Below are positions 2,004 to 58,413 of a stretch of DNA of 64,000 nt, piece by piece. Numbering within the stretch: position 1 is the first letter of the stretch; each line of letters starts with the position of its first letter. The notes beneath the pieces are model-generated. The model saw nothing but the letters and a program-made list of their open reading frames with translations, was not told where the DNA came from and did no database searches. Source of the stretch: a virus (lineage: Duplodnaviria > Caudoviricetes); the IMG/VR virus record IMGVR_UViG_3300035501_000169, positions 30,455 through 94,454 of that record; one strand, written 5' to 3'. Made by a program: the position numbers and the translations under genes.

Positions 2004-2552
2004 ATGAGTGTATGTGACGATTGTCCTATACGTCTATTTAATACTAAGAACTATAATCTACAAGGGGTTGGCAATCCTTATTATGGTAGGTGTATTGTTG
2101 TTCCTAATGTAGATTATAGTGCTTATAAAAAAGGTAGTATGGGATTTAGTTCTCAAGTTGAGATTATACGCGAATTGCTTTCTTCTACGGGGGAGGGCGA
2201 TAATGTGTTTATTCTTCCGCTTGTTCGATGTAATGAAAGTATTTCATGTGAACTTGATAACACCAGTTATGCTAGATGTTTATCTCATTTTAAAAATGAT
2301 ATTGTAAAATATGATTTTAAAGATATATTACTTCTTGGTGATGCTGGTAGAAGATTTCTCAATTGCGATATTAGAAATAATCTCAATAACTGCATTATTT
2401 CTCCTGTTAGAAGAAGATATGTTGTTAATTATTCTCCATTAATTAAATATATTGATGAAGATAAATTTAAAACATTTGAATATTATCTTCTAAAATGGTT
2501 TAATGCTACTAGAGAACGAAATTATTCAGGTTATAATATAATAAGATTATGA
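2004..2552 (+). CDS. uracil-DNA glycosylase-like (family 4 fold) protein, possibly degenerate
   Basis: N-terminal CDDCP, later RC...C, ILLLG and YSP; lies directly upstream of PolB as in crAss-like phages; canonical catalytic GE motif not evident. Confidence 0.5.
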   Translation: MSVCDDCPIRLFNTKNYNLQGVGNPYYGRCIVVPNVDYSAYKKGSMGFSSQVEIIRELLSSTGEGDNVFILPLVRCNESISCELDNTSYARCLSHFKNDIVKYDFKDILLLGDAGRRFLNCDIRNNLNNCIISPVRRRYVVNYSPLIKYIDEDKFKTFEYYLLKWFNATRERNYSGYNIIRL

Positions 2553-4876
2553 TTAATTCTCTTGTTGTAGATACAGAAATATTTCCTAATCTTTTTAGTG
2601 TTACTTTTATTGACCTAAAAAGTTATTTGAAAATGTTTGCTGATTGTGTTGATGATAAAGGTAAACCTATACCATTAACTGAATGTCTACCTGTTTGTGA
2701 AATAAAATCTCGTCTTGATAATGTTAAATCTGAAGTGTTTTATATTAGTGATACTGATGATAGTCAATTACTTGAATTAGTATCACGTATAAATGGTATG
2801 CAAGCATATTATGAAACTAAAACTACAGATGATGGTAACGTAACTCAAGTTGCAGTTCGTACTGACTTGTTTGGCTTTAATAATCAAGGATATGATGATT
2901 TGATGATTAAAGCTTTTCTTATGATGTTTAATCGTTTTGATACTACAAAAGAATTGATAAAATATCTTTATGATACTAATAAGAAAATTATTAGTTTACA
3001 AGGAGATAGAGATTCTTTTTATAATGATAAACAACTAGAACTAATAAGAAATTATAGACTTCCTTATCAAACTGTTGATTTACAACAAGTATATGGTCTT
3101 CATTCTGCTGGTGTAAATGTTAACAAAGATACAGGTGAAAGAGTTAAATTTGGTAAATCTCTTAAACAAACTTCTATTAATCTTAAATGGCATGAACTTT
3201 TAGACTTTACTCTTCCTCCTATAGATAAAGAGGAATATGAAGCTTATTGGTCTAAACAAGAAAGATTAAGAGGTTTTAGTATTGATGAACTTAATAAACT
3301 TGTAACAACTGATTTTGATAGATATATTCTTCCTAAATATATAAAGCCTATGCTTTATTATAATAAGAATGATGTATTTCTATGTTGTGAAATGGTTCGT
3401 CAAAAACCTGATGAGGTTAAACTAAGATATAGTATTTCAGCTGCTTTTGGAGTTAATGTTCTTTGCAGTGCTAGAGCAAATATTGCTGATAAACTTACAG
3501 TTAAGTTTTATTCTGATATGAGTGGTCTTAAACGTGACCAATTTATAAAAGGTAGAACTGTTAGAACTAGATTAAGTTTTAATAAGATTATCTTTCCTCA
3601 TATTAAATTTAAGACTAAACAACTTCAAGATTTTCTTGAAGATATTAAAAAAGTAAGTATATATAGAACAAGTAAAGACGAATTTGAACGTGAAATAGAT
3701 TTCTATGGTACTAAATATACCTTAGCAACAGGTGGTATTCATAGTCAAGACCCTCCTAGAATTTGTATATCTAATGATGAATATGTATATCTTCATCATG
3801 ACTATACTAGTTATTATCCTAGTATAATGATTAGTTATGGTATTTATCCGCAGCATCTTAATAAAACTGCTTTTGTTAAAATGGTTAGTTTTTTAAAAGA
3901 TACGCGTGTTAAATGTAAACATACAAAAGATAGTGAAGGTTATGTTATGAAAGGAGTTCCTAATAAAATAGGAGCTGAAGCTCTTAAAATTGTAATTAAT
4001 TCTATTTATGGTAAACTTGGTAGTGAATTGTTCTTTCTTTATGATAGATTTGCTCAAATGCAAGTTACTATTAATGGTCAATTAATGACAATGACTCTAA
4101 TAGAAGAACTCGAATTAAATGGTATTCATGTGATTAGTGCAAATACTGATGGTATTGTAATTAAACTTCCTCGTAACAAATTTGATGTTTATAAGGATAT
4201 TACAGACCGTTGGAATGAAACTAATAAAATGGGTGCTGATTATGAAGAGTATGATAGAATCATTAGTAGAGATGTGAATAATTATTTTGATATACAAACT
4301 AATGGTGATATAGAATATAAAGGTGCTCTTGACCCTAAACAATATATCAAAGACCTTAAGAAAGGTTATGATATGCCTATTGTAGCTAAAGCTGTATTTG
4401 AGTTTTTTGTGCATAATACTCCAATTATGGATACTTTGCATAAACATACAGATATTCTTGATTTCTGTAAAACTCAAAATGTAGGTAAACAATTTGATGT
4501 TGTTTATAATGTTATAGAAGATAGTAATATTAAAACTATAACTAGTCAAAGACACGTTAGATTTTATGTTTCTCATAAAGGTGTTATTATTCAGAAAAGA
4601 CAGAAAACTACTGGTAAATGTAGTAAACTTGCCGGTGGTAAAGCTGTAACTATTCTTAACTCTCTTGATGATGCTCCTATCGAAGAAAGAAATATTAATT
4701 ATGGTTATTATTATGATGAGTGTTATAAGATTATAAATCCTATTATGCATGGTATTTCTCCTAATCAAAAAGGAGATAGACAACGTGGTACTTTAAGTGG
4801 AAAAGTTCTACTTAAAAAATTAGGTCAACAATATAACTCTCTTTTTGATGATGACGACTTTAACAATAAACAATGA
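2549..4876 (+). CDS. family B DNA polymerase with N-terminal 3'-5' exonuclease
   Basis: Exo DTE, GFNNQGYD and YNKND; polymerase DYTSYYPS, KIVINSIYG and ANTDG. Confidence 0.93.
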   Translation: MINSLVVDTEIFPNLFSVTFIDLKSYLKMFADCVDDKGKPIPLTECLPVCEIKSRLDNVKSEVFYISDTDDSQLLELVSRINGMQAYYETKTTDDGNVTQVAVRTDLFGFNNQGYDDLMIKAFLMMFNRFDTTKELIKYLYDTNKKIISLQGDRDSFYNDKQLELIRNYRLPYQTVDLQQVYGLHSAGVNVNKDTGERVKFGKSLKQTSINLKWHELLDFTLPPIDKEEYEAYWSKQERLRGFSIDELNKLVTTDFDRYILPKYIKPMLYYNKNDVFLCCEMVRQKPDEVKLRYSISAAFGVNVLCSARANIADKLTVKFYSDMSGLKRDQFIKGRTVRTRLSFNKIIFPHIKFKTKQLQDFLEDIKKVSIYRTSKDEFEREIDFYGTKYTLATGGIHSQDPPRICISNDEYVYLHHDYTSYYPSIMISYGIYPQHLNKTAFVKMVSFLKDTRVKCKHTKDSEGYVMKGVPNKIGAEALKIVINSIYGKLGSELFFLYDRFAQMQVTINGQLMTMTLIEELELNGIHVISANTDGIVIKLPRNKFDVYKDITDRWNETNKMGADYEEYDRIISRDVNNYFDIQTNGDIEYKGALDPKQYIKDLKKGYDMPIVAKAVFEFFVHNTPIMDTLHKHTDILDFCKTQNVGKQFDVVYNVIEDSNIKTITSQRHVRFYVSHKGVIIQKRQKTTGKCSKLAGGKAVTILNSLDDAPIEERNINYGYYYDECYKIINPIMHGISPNQKGDRQRGTLSGKVLLKKLGQQYNSLFDDDDFNNKQ

Positions 4877-57950: not shown

Positions 57951-57990
57951 ATCATGATAACAAACCTTAATATCACCAACATTAAACTTA

Positions 57991-58413
57991 TTATAACATA
58001 TCTACCCAACTTATTGCAATACCTTGTCGACACATATCAGCATACCAACGATTAAAAACAATCCCATCATAGCCATCAACATCATCTATAACGTCTTTAA
58101 CATATTTACAAAGATGTTGTTCATCAGGAACACTACTACCAAGAAAATCAGCTTTACACATATTAGCAACATAAACATAATCATAAAGTTGATTTTCTTT
58201 AAGAGTAATATTATATGACTTAAATAGACTATCAATAGTTTCTTTTGACATAGCAACTAAACTATCGCGCTCCCCCGTAGAAGAATGTCTGACTTGCATC
58301 ATACTAACTGCAAAGTCACATAGCTTTTTATTAAAATGACGACCATTATAACGAAGATAAGCAATCATATCTTCAGGTAATTCATCATAAATATCAAGAC
58401 TTTCACGTATCAT
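57991..58413 (-). CDS. conserved Bacteroidota-phage hypothetical protein
   Basis: YLRYNGRHFNKKLCDFAVS...YVANMCKADF...FNRWYAD. Confidence 0.75.
   Translation of the reverse strand: MIRESLDIYDELPEDMIAYLRYNGRHFNKKLCDFAVSMMQVRHSSTGERDSLVAMSKETIDSLFKSYNITLKENQLYDYVYVANMCKADFLGSSVPDEQHLCKYVKDVIDDVDGYDGIVFNRWYADMCRQGIAISWVDML

What the first reader, a model, noticed from the sequence alone, without database searches (positions are those of the whole stretch)
2184..58281. The 12-mer copies alternate strictly in orientation (+,-,+,-...) with ~8 kb per-strand spacing, ignoring gene direction
Seen: the 16 copies I found alternate perfectly, which has a chance of about 1 in 33,000 if orientations were independent. 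Same-strand gaps are 7.9, 8.4, 4.3, 7.1, 9.5, 10.0 and 7.8 kb on +, and 7.3, 6.0, 8.1, 6.7, 8.5, 8.1 and 8.3 kb on -. Gaps from a + copy to the next - copy are short (0.09-3.9 kb) and the reverse gaps are longer (3.2-7.6 kb). The pattern continues unchanged across the transcription switch at 21 kb, which argues against promoter, terminator or replichore-polar roles. Inference: either each strand needs a site within about 10 kb (a processive enzyme with limited run length, or a nuclease arriving from either end), or inverted pairs define loops or domains. Caveats: the scan was by eye, the alternation depends on counting the one-difference copies, and a two-mismatch minus copy at 57107-57120 would break it if functional.
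Basis: partly seen in the sequence, partly recalled or inferred. Interest (0 to 1): 0.88.

Follow-up and report, generated by a model that had tools for sequence, protein, structure and literature searches.

The report
Evenly spaced strand-specific crAss-phage DNA word
The plus/minus alternation of this GC-rich 12-mer is real in the window, but it follows from something more basic and apparently undescribed: crAssphage-family genomes keep one DNA word evenly spaced along each strand, even inside genes, for a reader that is still unknown.

Summary
The 12-mer is TCTACGGGGGAG, the core of a signal about 17-20 nt long. The window is the last 64 kb of a 94,454-bp crAss-like phage (Crassvirales, Intestiviridae). 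The 16 copies are there and alternate perfectly, but only if a copy with a 1-base deletion at 12636 is counted. Intact sites at the same position in relatives justify counting it.

The alternation is not genome-wide. The 30 kb before the window carry five minus copies in a row. It also needs no link between the strands. If each strand keeps its own even spacing and the relative phase is randomised, equally perfect interleaving appears in about 30% of trials. None of 16 genomes alternates more than that null predicts.

The solid feature is even spacing on each strand (CV 0.24-0.41, P about 1e-4). Sites keep their position and orientation in relatives that share only 50-64% protein identity. Every Intestiviridae genome tested has its own "dialect" of the word, including the prototypical crAssphage. 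crAss001 carries a different dispersed 9-mer.

I read it as a "coverage" signal for a phage machine that tracks one DNA strand, most likely sites for priming or loading during DNA synthesis, or for nicking. The function is not shown. This scan has reported the same motif system at least ten times on other crAss genomes. I found no paper that describes it.

The parts
2184..2195 (+). Motif copy, perfect. Lies inside the uracil-DNA glycosylase gene in sense orientation, in the frame that encodes S-T-G-E.
   Evidence: Orthologous site in G001, G002, G004 and G005. Gene identified from cr271_1 annotation.
5385..5396 (-). Motif copy TCTACGGGGGTG. Antisense inside the 471-aa helicase gene, encoded as S-P-V-E.
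   Evidence: The same variant sits at the orthologous residue in all five IMG/VR relatives.
10097..10108 (+). Motif copy, perfect. Sense, inside the DNA primase gene, frame F-Y-G-G.
   Evidence: Orthologous at about residue 279 in all five relatives.
12636..12647 (-). Motif copy with a 1-base deletion in the G run (TCTACGGGG-AG). Intergenic and antisense to its neighbours. Probably decaying.
   Evidence: Intact sites lie in the same intergenic gap in G001, G002, G004 and G005.
18515..18526 (+). Motif copy, perfect, at the 3' end of the DUF932 gene. First member of a close inverted pair 93 bp apart.
   Evidence: The pair is conserved in G001, G002, G004 and G005.
18608..18619 (-). Motif copy, perfect, intergenic. 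Second member of the close inverted pair.
22785..22796 (+). Motif copy TCTACAGGGGAG. Intergenic or at a gene edge, just past the stop of the 4574-aa ORF, antisense.
   Evidence: Orthologous in G001, G002, G004 and G005.
26674..26685 (-). Motif copy TCTACGGGGCAG. Sense, inside the 4574-aa ORF.
   Evidence: Lowest-scoring of the true sites (25-31 bits).
29861..29872 (+). Motif copy, perfect. Antisense inside the 4574-aa ORF (S-P-V-E).
33333..33344 (-). Motif copy, perfect. Sense inside the 4574-aa ORF (L-Y-G-G).
39401..39412 (+). Motif copy, perfect. Antisense inside the 2960-aa ORF.
41830..41841 (-). Motif copy, perfect. Sense inside the 2960-aa ORF (S-T-G-E).
49433..49444 (+). Motif copy GCTACGGGGGAG. 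Antisense inside a 626-aa ORF.
49959..49970 (-). Motif copy, perfect. Sense inside the same 626-aa ORF (F-Y-G-G).
57191..57202 (+). Motif copy, perfect. Intergenic, antisense to its neighbours.
58270..58281 (-). Motif copy, perfect. Sense inside a 140-aa ORF (S-T-G-E).
57107..57118 (-). Two-mismatch look-alike TCTTCGAGGGAG. Not a member of the site set.
   Evidence: PWM score 0.9-6.4 bits against 25-40 for true sites. No orthologous site in relatives.

Best explanation
SHOWN. TCTACGGGGGAG is the core of an asymmetric word of about 17-20 nt (roughly ACCTT-TCTACGGGGGAG-CT). Selection keeps it at the DNA level in this Intestiviridae phage. It forms two strand-specific series, and each is spaced evenly (about 7-8 kb here, 5-7 kb in relatives with more sites). 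The minus series runs round the whole 94-kb genome. The plus series runs only through about 55 kb of it. Where two even series of similar period overlap they interleave, so the strict +,-,+,- order and the 'short then long' gaps follow from per-strand evenness. No pairing of inverted copies is needed. The site set is old: positions and orientations are shared by genomes with only 50-64% protein identity. The word changes in concert within a lineage. cr8_1 has ATACCTTTTACGGGGSGGCTA, the prototypical crAssphage has CATCCTCYACGGGGRGT and crAss002 has CTCCTTTAYGGGGGAA. This points to a phage-encoded reader that co-evolves with its sites.

INFERRED. Even spacing on each strand, with both an exclusion zone and a cap on the largest gap, suggests a 'coverage' function: each site serves the stretch of that strand next to it. 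A machine that tracks one strand in one direction would need this. I think the most likely reader is the phage replication apparatus. The sites would be places where synthesis on an exposed single strand is started or a helicase-primase is loaded, comparable to ssi or OriL-type signals. The GC-rich core would give a stable primer-template hybrid in DNA that is 31% GC. Site-specific nicking is the nearest alternative.

My odds: about 0.85 that the alternation is a by-product of two independent, evenly spaced, selected strand series. The single confidence figure given (0.4) is for the whole statement, shown and inferred parts together.
For: - Enrichment and score gap: 16 matches with at most 2 mismatches against 0.63 expected. 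In the whole genome 19 sites score 29-40 bits and the next best scores 10.
- DNA-level signal: copies lie in two sense frames, one antisense frame and five intergenic places.
- Evenness: the minus series has CV 0.30, P = 1e-4. The plus series within its range has CV 0.22, P = 4e-4. In 14 of 16 genomes one strand series has CV 0.24-0.41 with P at or below 0.0006. A 3-kb exclusion zone alone gives P = 0.01.
- By-product test: with phase or gap order randomised, 29-33% of trials interleave as well as observed. Across the 16 genomes P ranges from 0.24 to 0.99.
- Same-strand neighbours closer than 300 bp: 0 observed against 15.6 expected.
- Orthology of sites at 50-64% protein identity. An island of 0.87-1.0 identity over about 13 nt sits in flanks of 0.45-0.75.
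- Dialects in all ten other named Intestiviridae records tested.
- The genome encodes its own primase, two helicases, a family B polymerase, a ligase and RecT.
Against: - No experiment or read data bear on function.
- Replicative primases known to me recognise about 3-5 nt, not 12-20 (my own knowledge).
- A skew 'sawtooth' between sites, which long single-strand exposure might leave, was weak and not convincing.
- There is no local hairpin of the kind ssi signals have.
- The primase follows the species tree and does not track the dialects in any special way.
- Antisense copies are half as frequent in the structural module (74 sense against 33 antisense). A pure replication signal does not predict this, although coding constraint could explain it.
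- Close pairs on opposite strands are 2.6 times enriched (42 observed against 16.1 expected). Some co-placement of the two series therefore exists. It may only reflect a shared preference for intergenic DNA (5 of 21 sites against 8.8% of the sequence).
- The genomes compared share ancestry, so they are not 16 independent trials.
Confidence: 0.4

Rival explanations
1. The word marks site-specific single-strand nicks in virion or replicating DNA, made by a phage nickase, as in T5, phiKMV-like and tf/LUZ24-like phages. Here both strands would be nicked.
For: Nick-associated motifs are the closest published parallel. They are 9-19-nt asymmetric words, nearly invariant, mostly inside coding sequences, kept at similar positions among distant relatives, and of unknown function (PMC3517423; PMC11780129). 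This phage encodes an ATP-dependent DNA ligase.
Against: In every described case the motif lies on one strand only and is unevenly distributed. Here both strands carry it and the spacing is even. Close inverted pairs 27-200 bp apart would put nicks on opposite strands near each other and risk breaking the duplex. I recognised no nickase gene in this genome among the ORFs I scanned.
Confidence: 0.15
2. The word is a start site (promoter) for a phage polymerase that makes RNA in the direction of the word, beginning in the G run. The transcripts could be regulatory or antisense RNAs, or primers.
For: The information content is high (about 28 bits against about 13 needed to specify 20 sites in 94 kb; computed). 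Dialects change in concert by lineage. Both are typical of promoters of phage-encoded polymerases. The 3' part, CTACGGGGGAG, resembles the CTATAGGGAGA end of T7-group promoters (my own knowledge). One copy lies 48 nt upstream of a gene in sense orientation, and that arrangement is kept in cr271_1, ctcc615 and cr8_1.
Against: About half the copies are antisense and about three quarters lie inside ORFs with no fixed relation to gene starts. For the crAss-like phage phi14:2, the middle promoters are sigma70-like and the early transcripts of the virion polymerase have no common upstream motif (preprint 10.1101/2020.03.07.982082). Even spacing on each strand is not expected of promoters.
Confidence: 0.12
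3. The word is a Chi-like, orientation-dependent signal that stops or modifies a helicase-nuclease running in from a DNA end. It would protect rolling-circle tails and genome ends, or mark phage DNA as 'self'.
For: A site density of about one per 4.5 kb and a strand-specific, evenly covering layout suit an enzyme that can enter anywhere and travel in either direction. The phage encodes an SF1 RecD/Dda-like helicase and a PD-(D/E)XK-type exonuclease.
Against: Known Chi words are 5-8 nt (my own knowledge), whereas 12-17 positions are fixed here. The word is not enriched in 41 genomes of a Bacteroides-containing family, so it is not the host's Chi. The phage also carries a Gam-like end-protection gene, which would already deal with host nucleases. 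Dialects differ between phages of closely related hosts.
Confidence: 0.1
4. The copies are binding sites of an architectural or regulatory phage protein, and neighbouring inverted copies are brought together to form loops or domains.
For: Close inverted pairs are enriched (42 observed against 16.1 expected within 300 bp). A site, with a degenerate inverted partner, lies just upstream of a conserved 168-aa gene, which looks like autoregulation.
Against: The alternation is fully explained without any coupling between strands. Pair geometry is not fixed: 17 pairs are convergent and 25 divergent, with spacings of 27-270 bp. The proposed HU/IHF-like binder has no detectable HU/IHF features: no Pfam, PHROG or PDB sequence match, a mostly helical model, and no fold match. 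A binder that ignores orientation would not need series that are coherent by strand.
Confidence: 0.1

Closest known systems
Nick-associated motifs of phages T5, phiKMV-like phages (CGACNNNNNCCTACTCCGG) and tf/LUZ24/Rembedalsseter-like phages (WACTRTGAC)
   Same: A short asymmetric word, nearly invariant, at about 10-20 copies per genome. It lies mostly inside coding sequences, is kept at similar positions among relatives with little nucleotide similarity, and its function is unknown (PMC3517423, PMC11780129).
   Different: Those motifs sit on one strand only and are clustered towards one genome end. The crAss word is on both strands, evenly spaced on each, and longer (about 17-20 nt). Whether nicks exist here is untested.
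Chi sites read by RecBCD/AddAB
   Same: Strand-specific and orientation-dependent. Dispersed at about one per 4-5 kb. Tolerated inside genes.
   Different: Chi is 5-8 nt, is read by a host enzyme, and is strongly enriched in the host chromosome. This word has 12-17 fixed positions, shows phage-lineage dialects, and is not enriched in the 41 Bacteroides-family genomes searched.
Promoters of T7-group phage RNA polymerases (T7, T3, SP6, K11)
   Same: High-information asymmetric words of about 20 nt. Each phage has its own dialect that co-evolves with its polymerase. The 3' ends are similar (CTATAGGGAGA against CTACGGGGGAG; my own knowledge).
   Different: T7-type promoters are intergenic and co-oriented with the genes. 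Here about half the copies are antisense and most are inside ORFs. I found no T7-like single-subunit polymerase gene among the ORFs I scanned.
Single-strand initiation signals and light-strand-type origins (RSF1010 ssiA/ssiB, phage G4 origin, mitochondrial OriL)
   Same: Strand-specific signals where synthesis starts on an exposed single strand. They occur on opposite strands in inverted orientation. This is the working model I favour.
   Different: Those signals are hairpins of 40-140 nt present once or twice per replicon. Here there is no local hairpin and there are 20-35 copies per genome.
Stoperators of Cluster A mycobacteriophages (13-bp asymmetric repressor sites)
   Same: Tens of copies of one asymmetric word dispersed over a phage genome, with lineage-specific variants that co-evolve with a phage protein (my own knowledge).
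   Different: Stoperators are mostly intergenic and oriented with transcription. The crAss word is mostly in ORFs, and sense and antisense copies are balanced.

Membership tests
Nick-associated phage motifs (T5, phiKMV-like, tf-like) | A physical single-strand break at the motif in virion DNA | not testable with these tools
   No sequencing run was listed for this genome. Needs native long reads or alkaline gels.
Nick-associated phage motifs (T5, phiKMV-like, tf-like) | Motif confined to one DNA strand | tested here: not met
   8 plus and 11-13 minus copies in this genome. Both strands are used in all 16 genomes. In tf and Rembedalsseter all copies are on one strand.
Nick-associated phage motifs (T5, phiKMV-like, tf-like) | Motif positions conserved among distant relatives | tested here: met
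   Most sites map to the same residue or the same intergenic gap in relatives with 50-64% protein identity.
Chi sites | Short word (5-8 nt) that is enriched and skewed in the host chromosome | tested here: not met
   12-17 conserved positions. YYYTACGGGGG occurs 0-10 times per genome, no more than the reversed control, in 41 genomes of the family of a Bacteroides MAG. Caveat: the true host is unknown.
Chi sites | Orientation-dependent action on a helicase-nuclease | not testable with these tools
   Requires biochemistry.
Phage-polymerase promoters (T7 type) | Located upstream of genes and co-oriented with them | tested here: not met
   About 15 of 21 copies lie inside ORFs. Four of the five intergenic copies are antisense to their neighbours. 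Totals over 16 genomes: 219 sense and 176 antisense.
Phage-polymerase promoters (T7 type) | Transcripts start at the word | not testable with these tools
   No RNA data available.
Invertible segments or loop anchors defined by inverted site pairs | Orientation of neighbouring sites coupled beyond what each strand's own spacing gives | tested here: not met
   The rotation and gap-shuffle null reproduces the alternation in 29-33% of trials. P ranges from 0.24 to 0.99 in 16 genomes.
Invertible segments or loop anchors defined by inverted site pairs | Inversions between paired copies seen among relatives | tested here: not met
   Sites and genes keep the same order and orientation in 11 genomes. 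ORFs spanning the pairs are intact.
Single-strand initiation or primase start signals | Strand-specific signal present on both strands and independent of transcription | tested here: met
Single-strand initiation or primase start signals | Stable hairpin in the single strand (classical ssi, G4 origin, OriL) | tested here: not met
   Eleven sites with 35-nt flanks, folded as DNA, give z-scores from -0.9 to +0.45 and share no hairpin.
Single-strand initiation or primase start signals | 5' ends of nascent strands or primers map to the signal | not testable with these tools
   Needs Okazaki-fragment or RNA-DNA junction mapping.
   No Pfam or PHROG hit. No PDB sequence hit. The AlphaFold2 model is mostly helical (pLDDT 74) and has no Foldseek match at E of 0.001 or better.

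The most novel reading that the evidence does not exclude
The crAssphage family replicates with programmed, sequence-specific start sites on each strand. A phage helicase-primase, or a polymerase that makes primers, would begin synthesis only at this word. That would give long discontinuous fragments of about 5-8 kb at defined positions, and the 'dialects' would record co-evolution between the enzyme and its sites. A related system with another word (CTTCTGGAG) would operate in crAss001-like phages.
Probability: 0.17. Interest if true: 0.85.

Novelty: new variant of a known kind. Interest (0 to 1): 0.6.

Why it matters
Intestiviridae include the most abundant virus of the human gut, yet how these phages replicate, package and protect their DNA is largely unknown. 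A word of 17-20 nt is kept letter for letter at 20-35 evenly spaced places on both strands, even through essential genes such as the primase, the helicase and the giant virion proteins. Selection pays a cost in protein sequence for this, so some machine must read it.

Knowing that the alternation is only a by-product redirects the experiments. They should look for a process that reads one strand, not for loops or inversions. The word and its dialects are also a practical marker for recognising and classifying crAss-like contigs. Three cultured members (crAss002, Rudgehvirus jaberico, Carjivirus communis) carry it, so the question can be tested directly.

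Tried and rejected
- Sequencing runs for the window, to look for nicks, read ends or inversions: none was listed.
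- Literature: the motif strings and crAss motif terms matched no phage paper. The crAss papers I read do not mention the word.
- Skew sawtooth at third codon positions between successive sites, expected if the strand stays single-stranded for long. Slopes were 1.9-2.4 bootstrap SD, the intervals are not independent, and no clean sawtooth appeared. Inconclusive.
- Recombination breakpoints at sites in the one close genome pair (G001/G002, 90% identity): no coincidence seen, with a sample of one pair.
- HU/IHF-like binder downstream of the site at genome position 23930: rejected. The ESM atlas gave only a weak winged-helix lead.
- Local hairpins at the sites: none.
- Host enrichment: a scan of reference genomes gave scattered single hits across all phyla, and there was no enrichment in 41 Bacteroides-family genomes.
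- A reader protein discordant with the species tree (cr3_1 shares this dialect, cr8_1 does not): no replication protein stood out.
- 'Direct terminal repeats' of relatives as true genome ends: they are 99, 119 and 141 bp, the sizes of assembler k-mers, so I treated these genomes as circular.
- Protein-motif explanation: rejected, because three different peptides and intergenic copies occur.
- Mobile-element explanation: rejected, because the sites are in frame and orthologous.

Full report
WHAT THE WORD IS AND WHERE IT LIES

The finding gives no sequence. Reading its two end coordinates shows the 12-mer TCTACGGGGGAG at 2184 (+) and its reverse complement at 58270-58281. With up to 2 mismatches the window holds 16 matches against 0.63 expected from shuffles.

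The window is bases 30455-94454 of a 94,454-bp virus record with 31% G+C. Its family B polymerase is 79% identical to that of crAssphage cr271_1, and the nearest named relatives are Intestiviridae of the Crassvirales.

Genes run leftward over 2-25 kb, rightward over 25-51 kb (the replication module: SF1 helicase, uracil-DNA glycosylase, polymerase, helicase, RecT, primase, ligase, ThyX, Gam-like protein) and leftward over 52-94 kb (giant ORFs of 4574, 2960 and 1453 aa, then tail and other genes).

CHECKING THE OBSERVATION

A position-weight-matrix scan of the whole genome separates 19 sites (29-40 bits) from everything else. The next best is a weak copy at genome position 3717 (10 bits). The two-mismatch copy at window 57107 scores 1-6 bits and has no counterpart in relatives, so it is noise. 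The deleted copy at 12636 lies where four relatives have an intact site, so it belongs to the set.

The 30 kb upstream of the window carry 3717-, 7779-, 14941-, 20838- and 23930-, five minus copies in a row. On the whole circle a permutation of orientations gives P = 0.011 (21 sites) or 0.054 (19 strict sites).

The copies lie in two sense reading frames (S-T-G-E and F/L-Y-G-G), one antisense frame (S-P-V-E) and five intergenic places. The constraint is therefore on the DNA and not on a peptide.

WHAT IS REALLY NON-RANDOM

Each strand's series is evenly spaced. The 13 minus sites have gaps of 3.1-11.9 kb round the circle (CV 0.30, P = 1e-4). The 8 plus sites have gaps of 4.3-10.0 kb within 32.6-87.6 kb (CV 0.22, P = 4e-4). 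A forbidden zone as wide as the smallest observed gap does not reproduce this (P = 0.01 for the CV, 0.048 for the largest gap). There is therefore both repulsion and a cap on gap size.

I then asked whether the alternation adds anything. I kept each strand's gaps and either rotated one series relative to the other or shuffled the gap order. The observed minimum number of same-strand neighbours arose in 29% and 33% of trials. The same test on 16 genomes never showed more alternation than this null predicts (P 0.24-0.99). The alternation, and the 'short plus-to-minus, long minus-to-plus' phase (Mann-Whitney P = 0.002), are what two even series of similar period produce. They do not show that inverted copies work in pairs.

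RELATIVES

An exact-match scan of viral contigs found the word many times in several contigs of about 90 kb. Five of these carry 13-21 copies each. They share only 50-64% protein identity, or about 73% nucleotide identity, with this phage. Even so, most sites map to the same residue of the same protein, or to the same intergenic gap, with the same orientation. Aligned on the word, orthologous sites show about 13 columns at 0.87-1.0 identity within flanks at 0.45-0.75. This comparison is partly circular, because the sites were chosen by the word. Retention in 5-7 of 8 relatives is the informative part.

Named genomes show dialects:
- cr271_1, ctcc615 and cr3_1 keep TCTACGGGGGAG.
- cr8_1 has ATACCTTTTACGGGGSGGCTA, and the prototypical crAssphage (Carjivirus communis) has CATCCTCYACGGGGRGT, about 27 and 32 copies.
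- crAss002 has CTCCTTTAYGGGGGAA, cr110_1 has TCCTCTACGGGGGGTCT, ctbg_1 has CTTTACGGGCCAG and Rudgehvirus jaberico has TCCTTTACAGGGGA.
- crAss001 (Steigviridae) lacks YACGGGG but has 29 copies of CTTCTGGAG against 2 expected. They lie on both strands and in several frames, and no two plus copies are neighbours.

In 14 of the 16 genomes one strand series, in most of them the one co-oriented with the large late gene block, is evenly spaced (CV 0.24-0.41, P at or below 0.0006). Pooled over genomes, same-strand copies are never closer than 300 bp (0 observed against 15.6 expected). Opposite-strand copies are enriched at that range (42 observed against 16.1 expected), in both convergent and divergent geometry and at variable spacing. 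A shared preference for intergenic DNA may explain this (5 of 21 sites in 8.8% of the sequence, P = 0.03). Sense and antisense copies are balanced in the replication block (71 against 68) and in the distal late block (74 against 75). Antisense copies are scarcer in the structural-gene part (74 sense against 33 antisense). These genomes share ancestry, so they are not independent trials.

WHAT IT IS NOT

- It is not an ordinary promoter or terminator. Half the copies are antisense and most are inside ORFs. For the crAss-like phage phi14:2, the middle promoters are sigma70-like and early transcripts have no common upstream motif.
- It is not the host's Chi. The word has 12-17 fixed positions and is not enriched in 41 genomes of the family of a Bacteroides MAG. 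The phage also has a Gam-like end-protection gene.
- It is not a mobile element. Copies are in frame and orthologous.
- It does not mark invertible segments. Gene order is colinear in 11 genomes.
There are no family or PDB sequence hits, the model is mostly helical, and no fold matches.
- Sites have no shared hairpin.

MOST LIKELY MECHANISM

Four things point to a phage-encoded reader that tracks one strand in one direction and needs a site every few kilobases. The word carries about 28 bits where about 13 would specify the sites. Its dialects change in concert within a lineage. Its orientation is coherent by strand. Its spacing is even, with a cap on the largest gap.

Replication (priming or loading on exposed single strands) fits best. 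Nicking, a Chi-like control of a phage helicase-nuclease, and polymerase start sites are the alternatives. None has been tested directly. A skew sawtooth that long single-strand exposure might leave was weak, and no replication protein tracks the dialects in a special way. I put about 0.85 on the by-product reading of the alternation and 0.25-0.3 on the replication reading.

COMPARISON WITH KNOWN SYSTEMS, AND NOVELTY

The nearest published parallel is the nick-associated motifs of T5, phiKMV-like and tf/Rembedalsseter-like phages. They are similar in copy number, invariance, position inside genes and conservation among relatives. They differ in lying on one strand only and being unevenly placed.

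I found no paper describing the crAss word. Earlier follow-ups in this same scan have described the same motif system on at least ten other crAss-like genomes, with the same main conclusions.

- The strict alternation is a by-product of per-strand evenness.
- The alternation breaks down outside the window.
- Antisense copies are depleted in the structural module.
- Bacteroides-family genomes show no enrichment for the word.
- crAss001 has its own dispersed 9-mer.

Noticed in passing
L200-L205 (MH675552.1, Bacteroides phage crAss001, whole genome): crAss001 (Steigviridae) lacks the YACGGGG word. It carries CTTCTGGAG 29 times against about 2 expected, on both strands, in several frames and in intergenic DNA. 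No two plus copies are neighbours (P about 0.0015 by my count). It may be an analogous signal in a second crAss family.
   Followed up: partly
Genome-wide, 16 genomes (for example window 18515/18608): Copies on opposite strands within 300 bp are 2.6 times enriched (42 observed against 16.1 expected), in both convergent and divergent order. Copies on the same strand are never that close (0 observed against 15.6 expected).
   Followed up: partly
Genome 2-25 kb (before the window) and the equivalent structural module in relatives: Antisense copies of the word are about half as frequent as sense copies in the structural-gene part of the late block (33 against 74). Elsewhere the two are balanced.
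   Followed up: partly
L002:947-1453 (-), that is genome 23376-23882: A conserved 168-aa protein of unknown fold (mostly helical model, no PDB match). A sense-oriented motif copy lies 48 nt upstream of it, and the arrangement is kept in cr271_1, ctcc615 and cr8_1. It is not HU/IHF-like.
   Followed up: yes
G001, G002, G003 (IMG/VR relatives): The 'direct terminal repeats' flagged for these records are 99, 141 and 119 bp. These are the k-mer sizes of a common assembler, so they probably mark circular assembly and not true genome ends.
   Followed up: partly
G001 and G002 (for example G002 6977-, 31642-, 83252-): A sub-class of sites reads TCTACRGGGGGTGTGGTT in place of ...GGGGGAGCT. A second flavour of the word therefore exists within one genome.
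   Followed up: no
window 16566-17327 (+): A Mu Gam-like / Siphovirus Gp157-like end-protection protein in the replication module. It is annotated as a host-nuclease inhibitor in cr271_1.
   Followed up: partly
window 21231-22823 (-): A 530-aa protein with a LysM domain and a YkuD L,D-transpeptidase domain, at the end of the late block next to the convergent switch.
   Followed up: no
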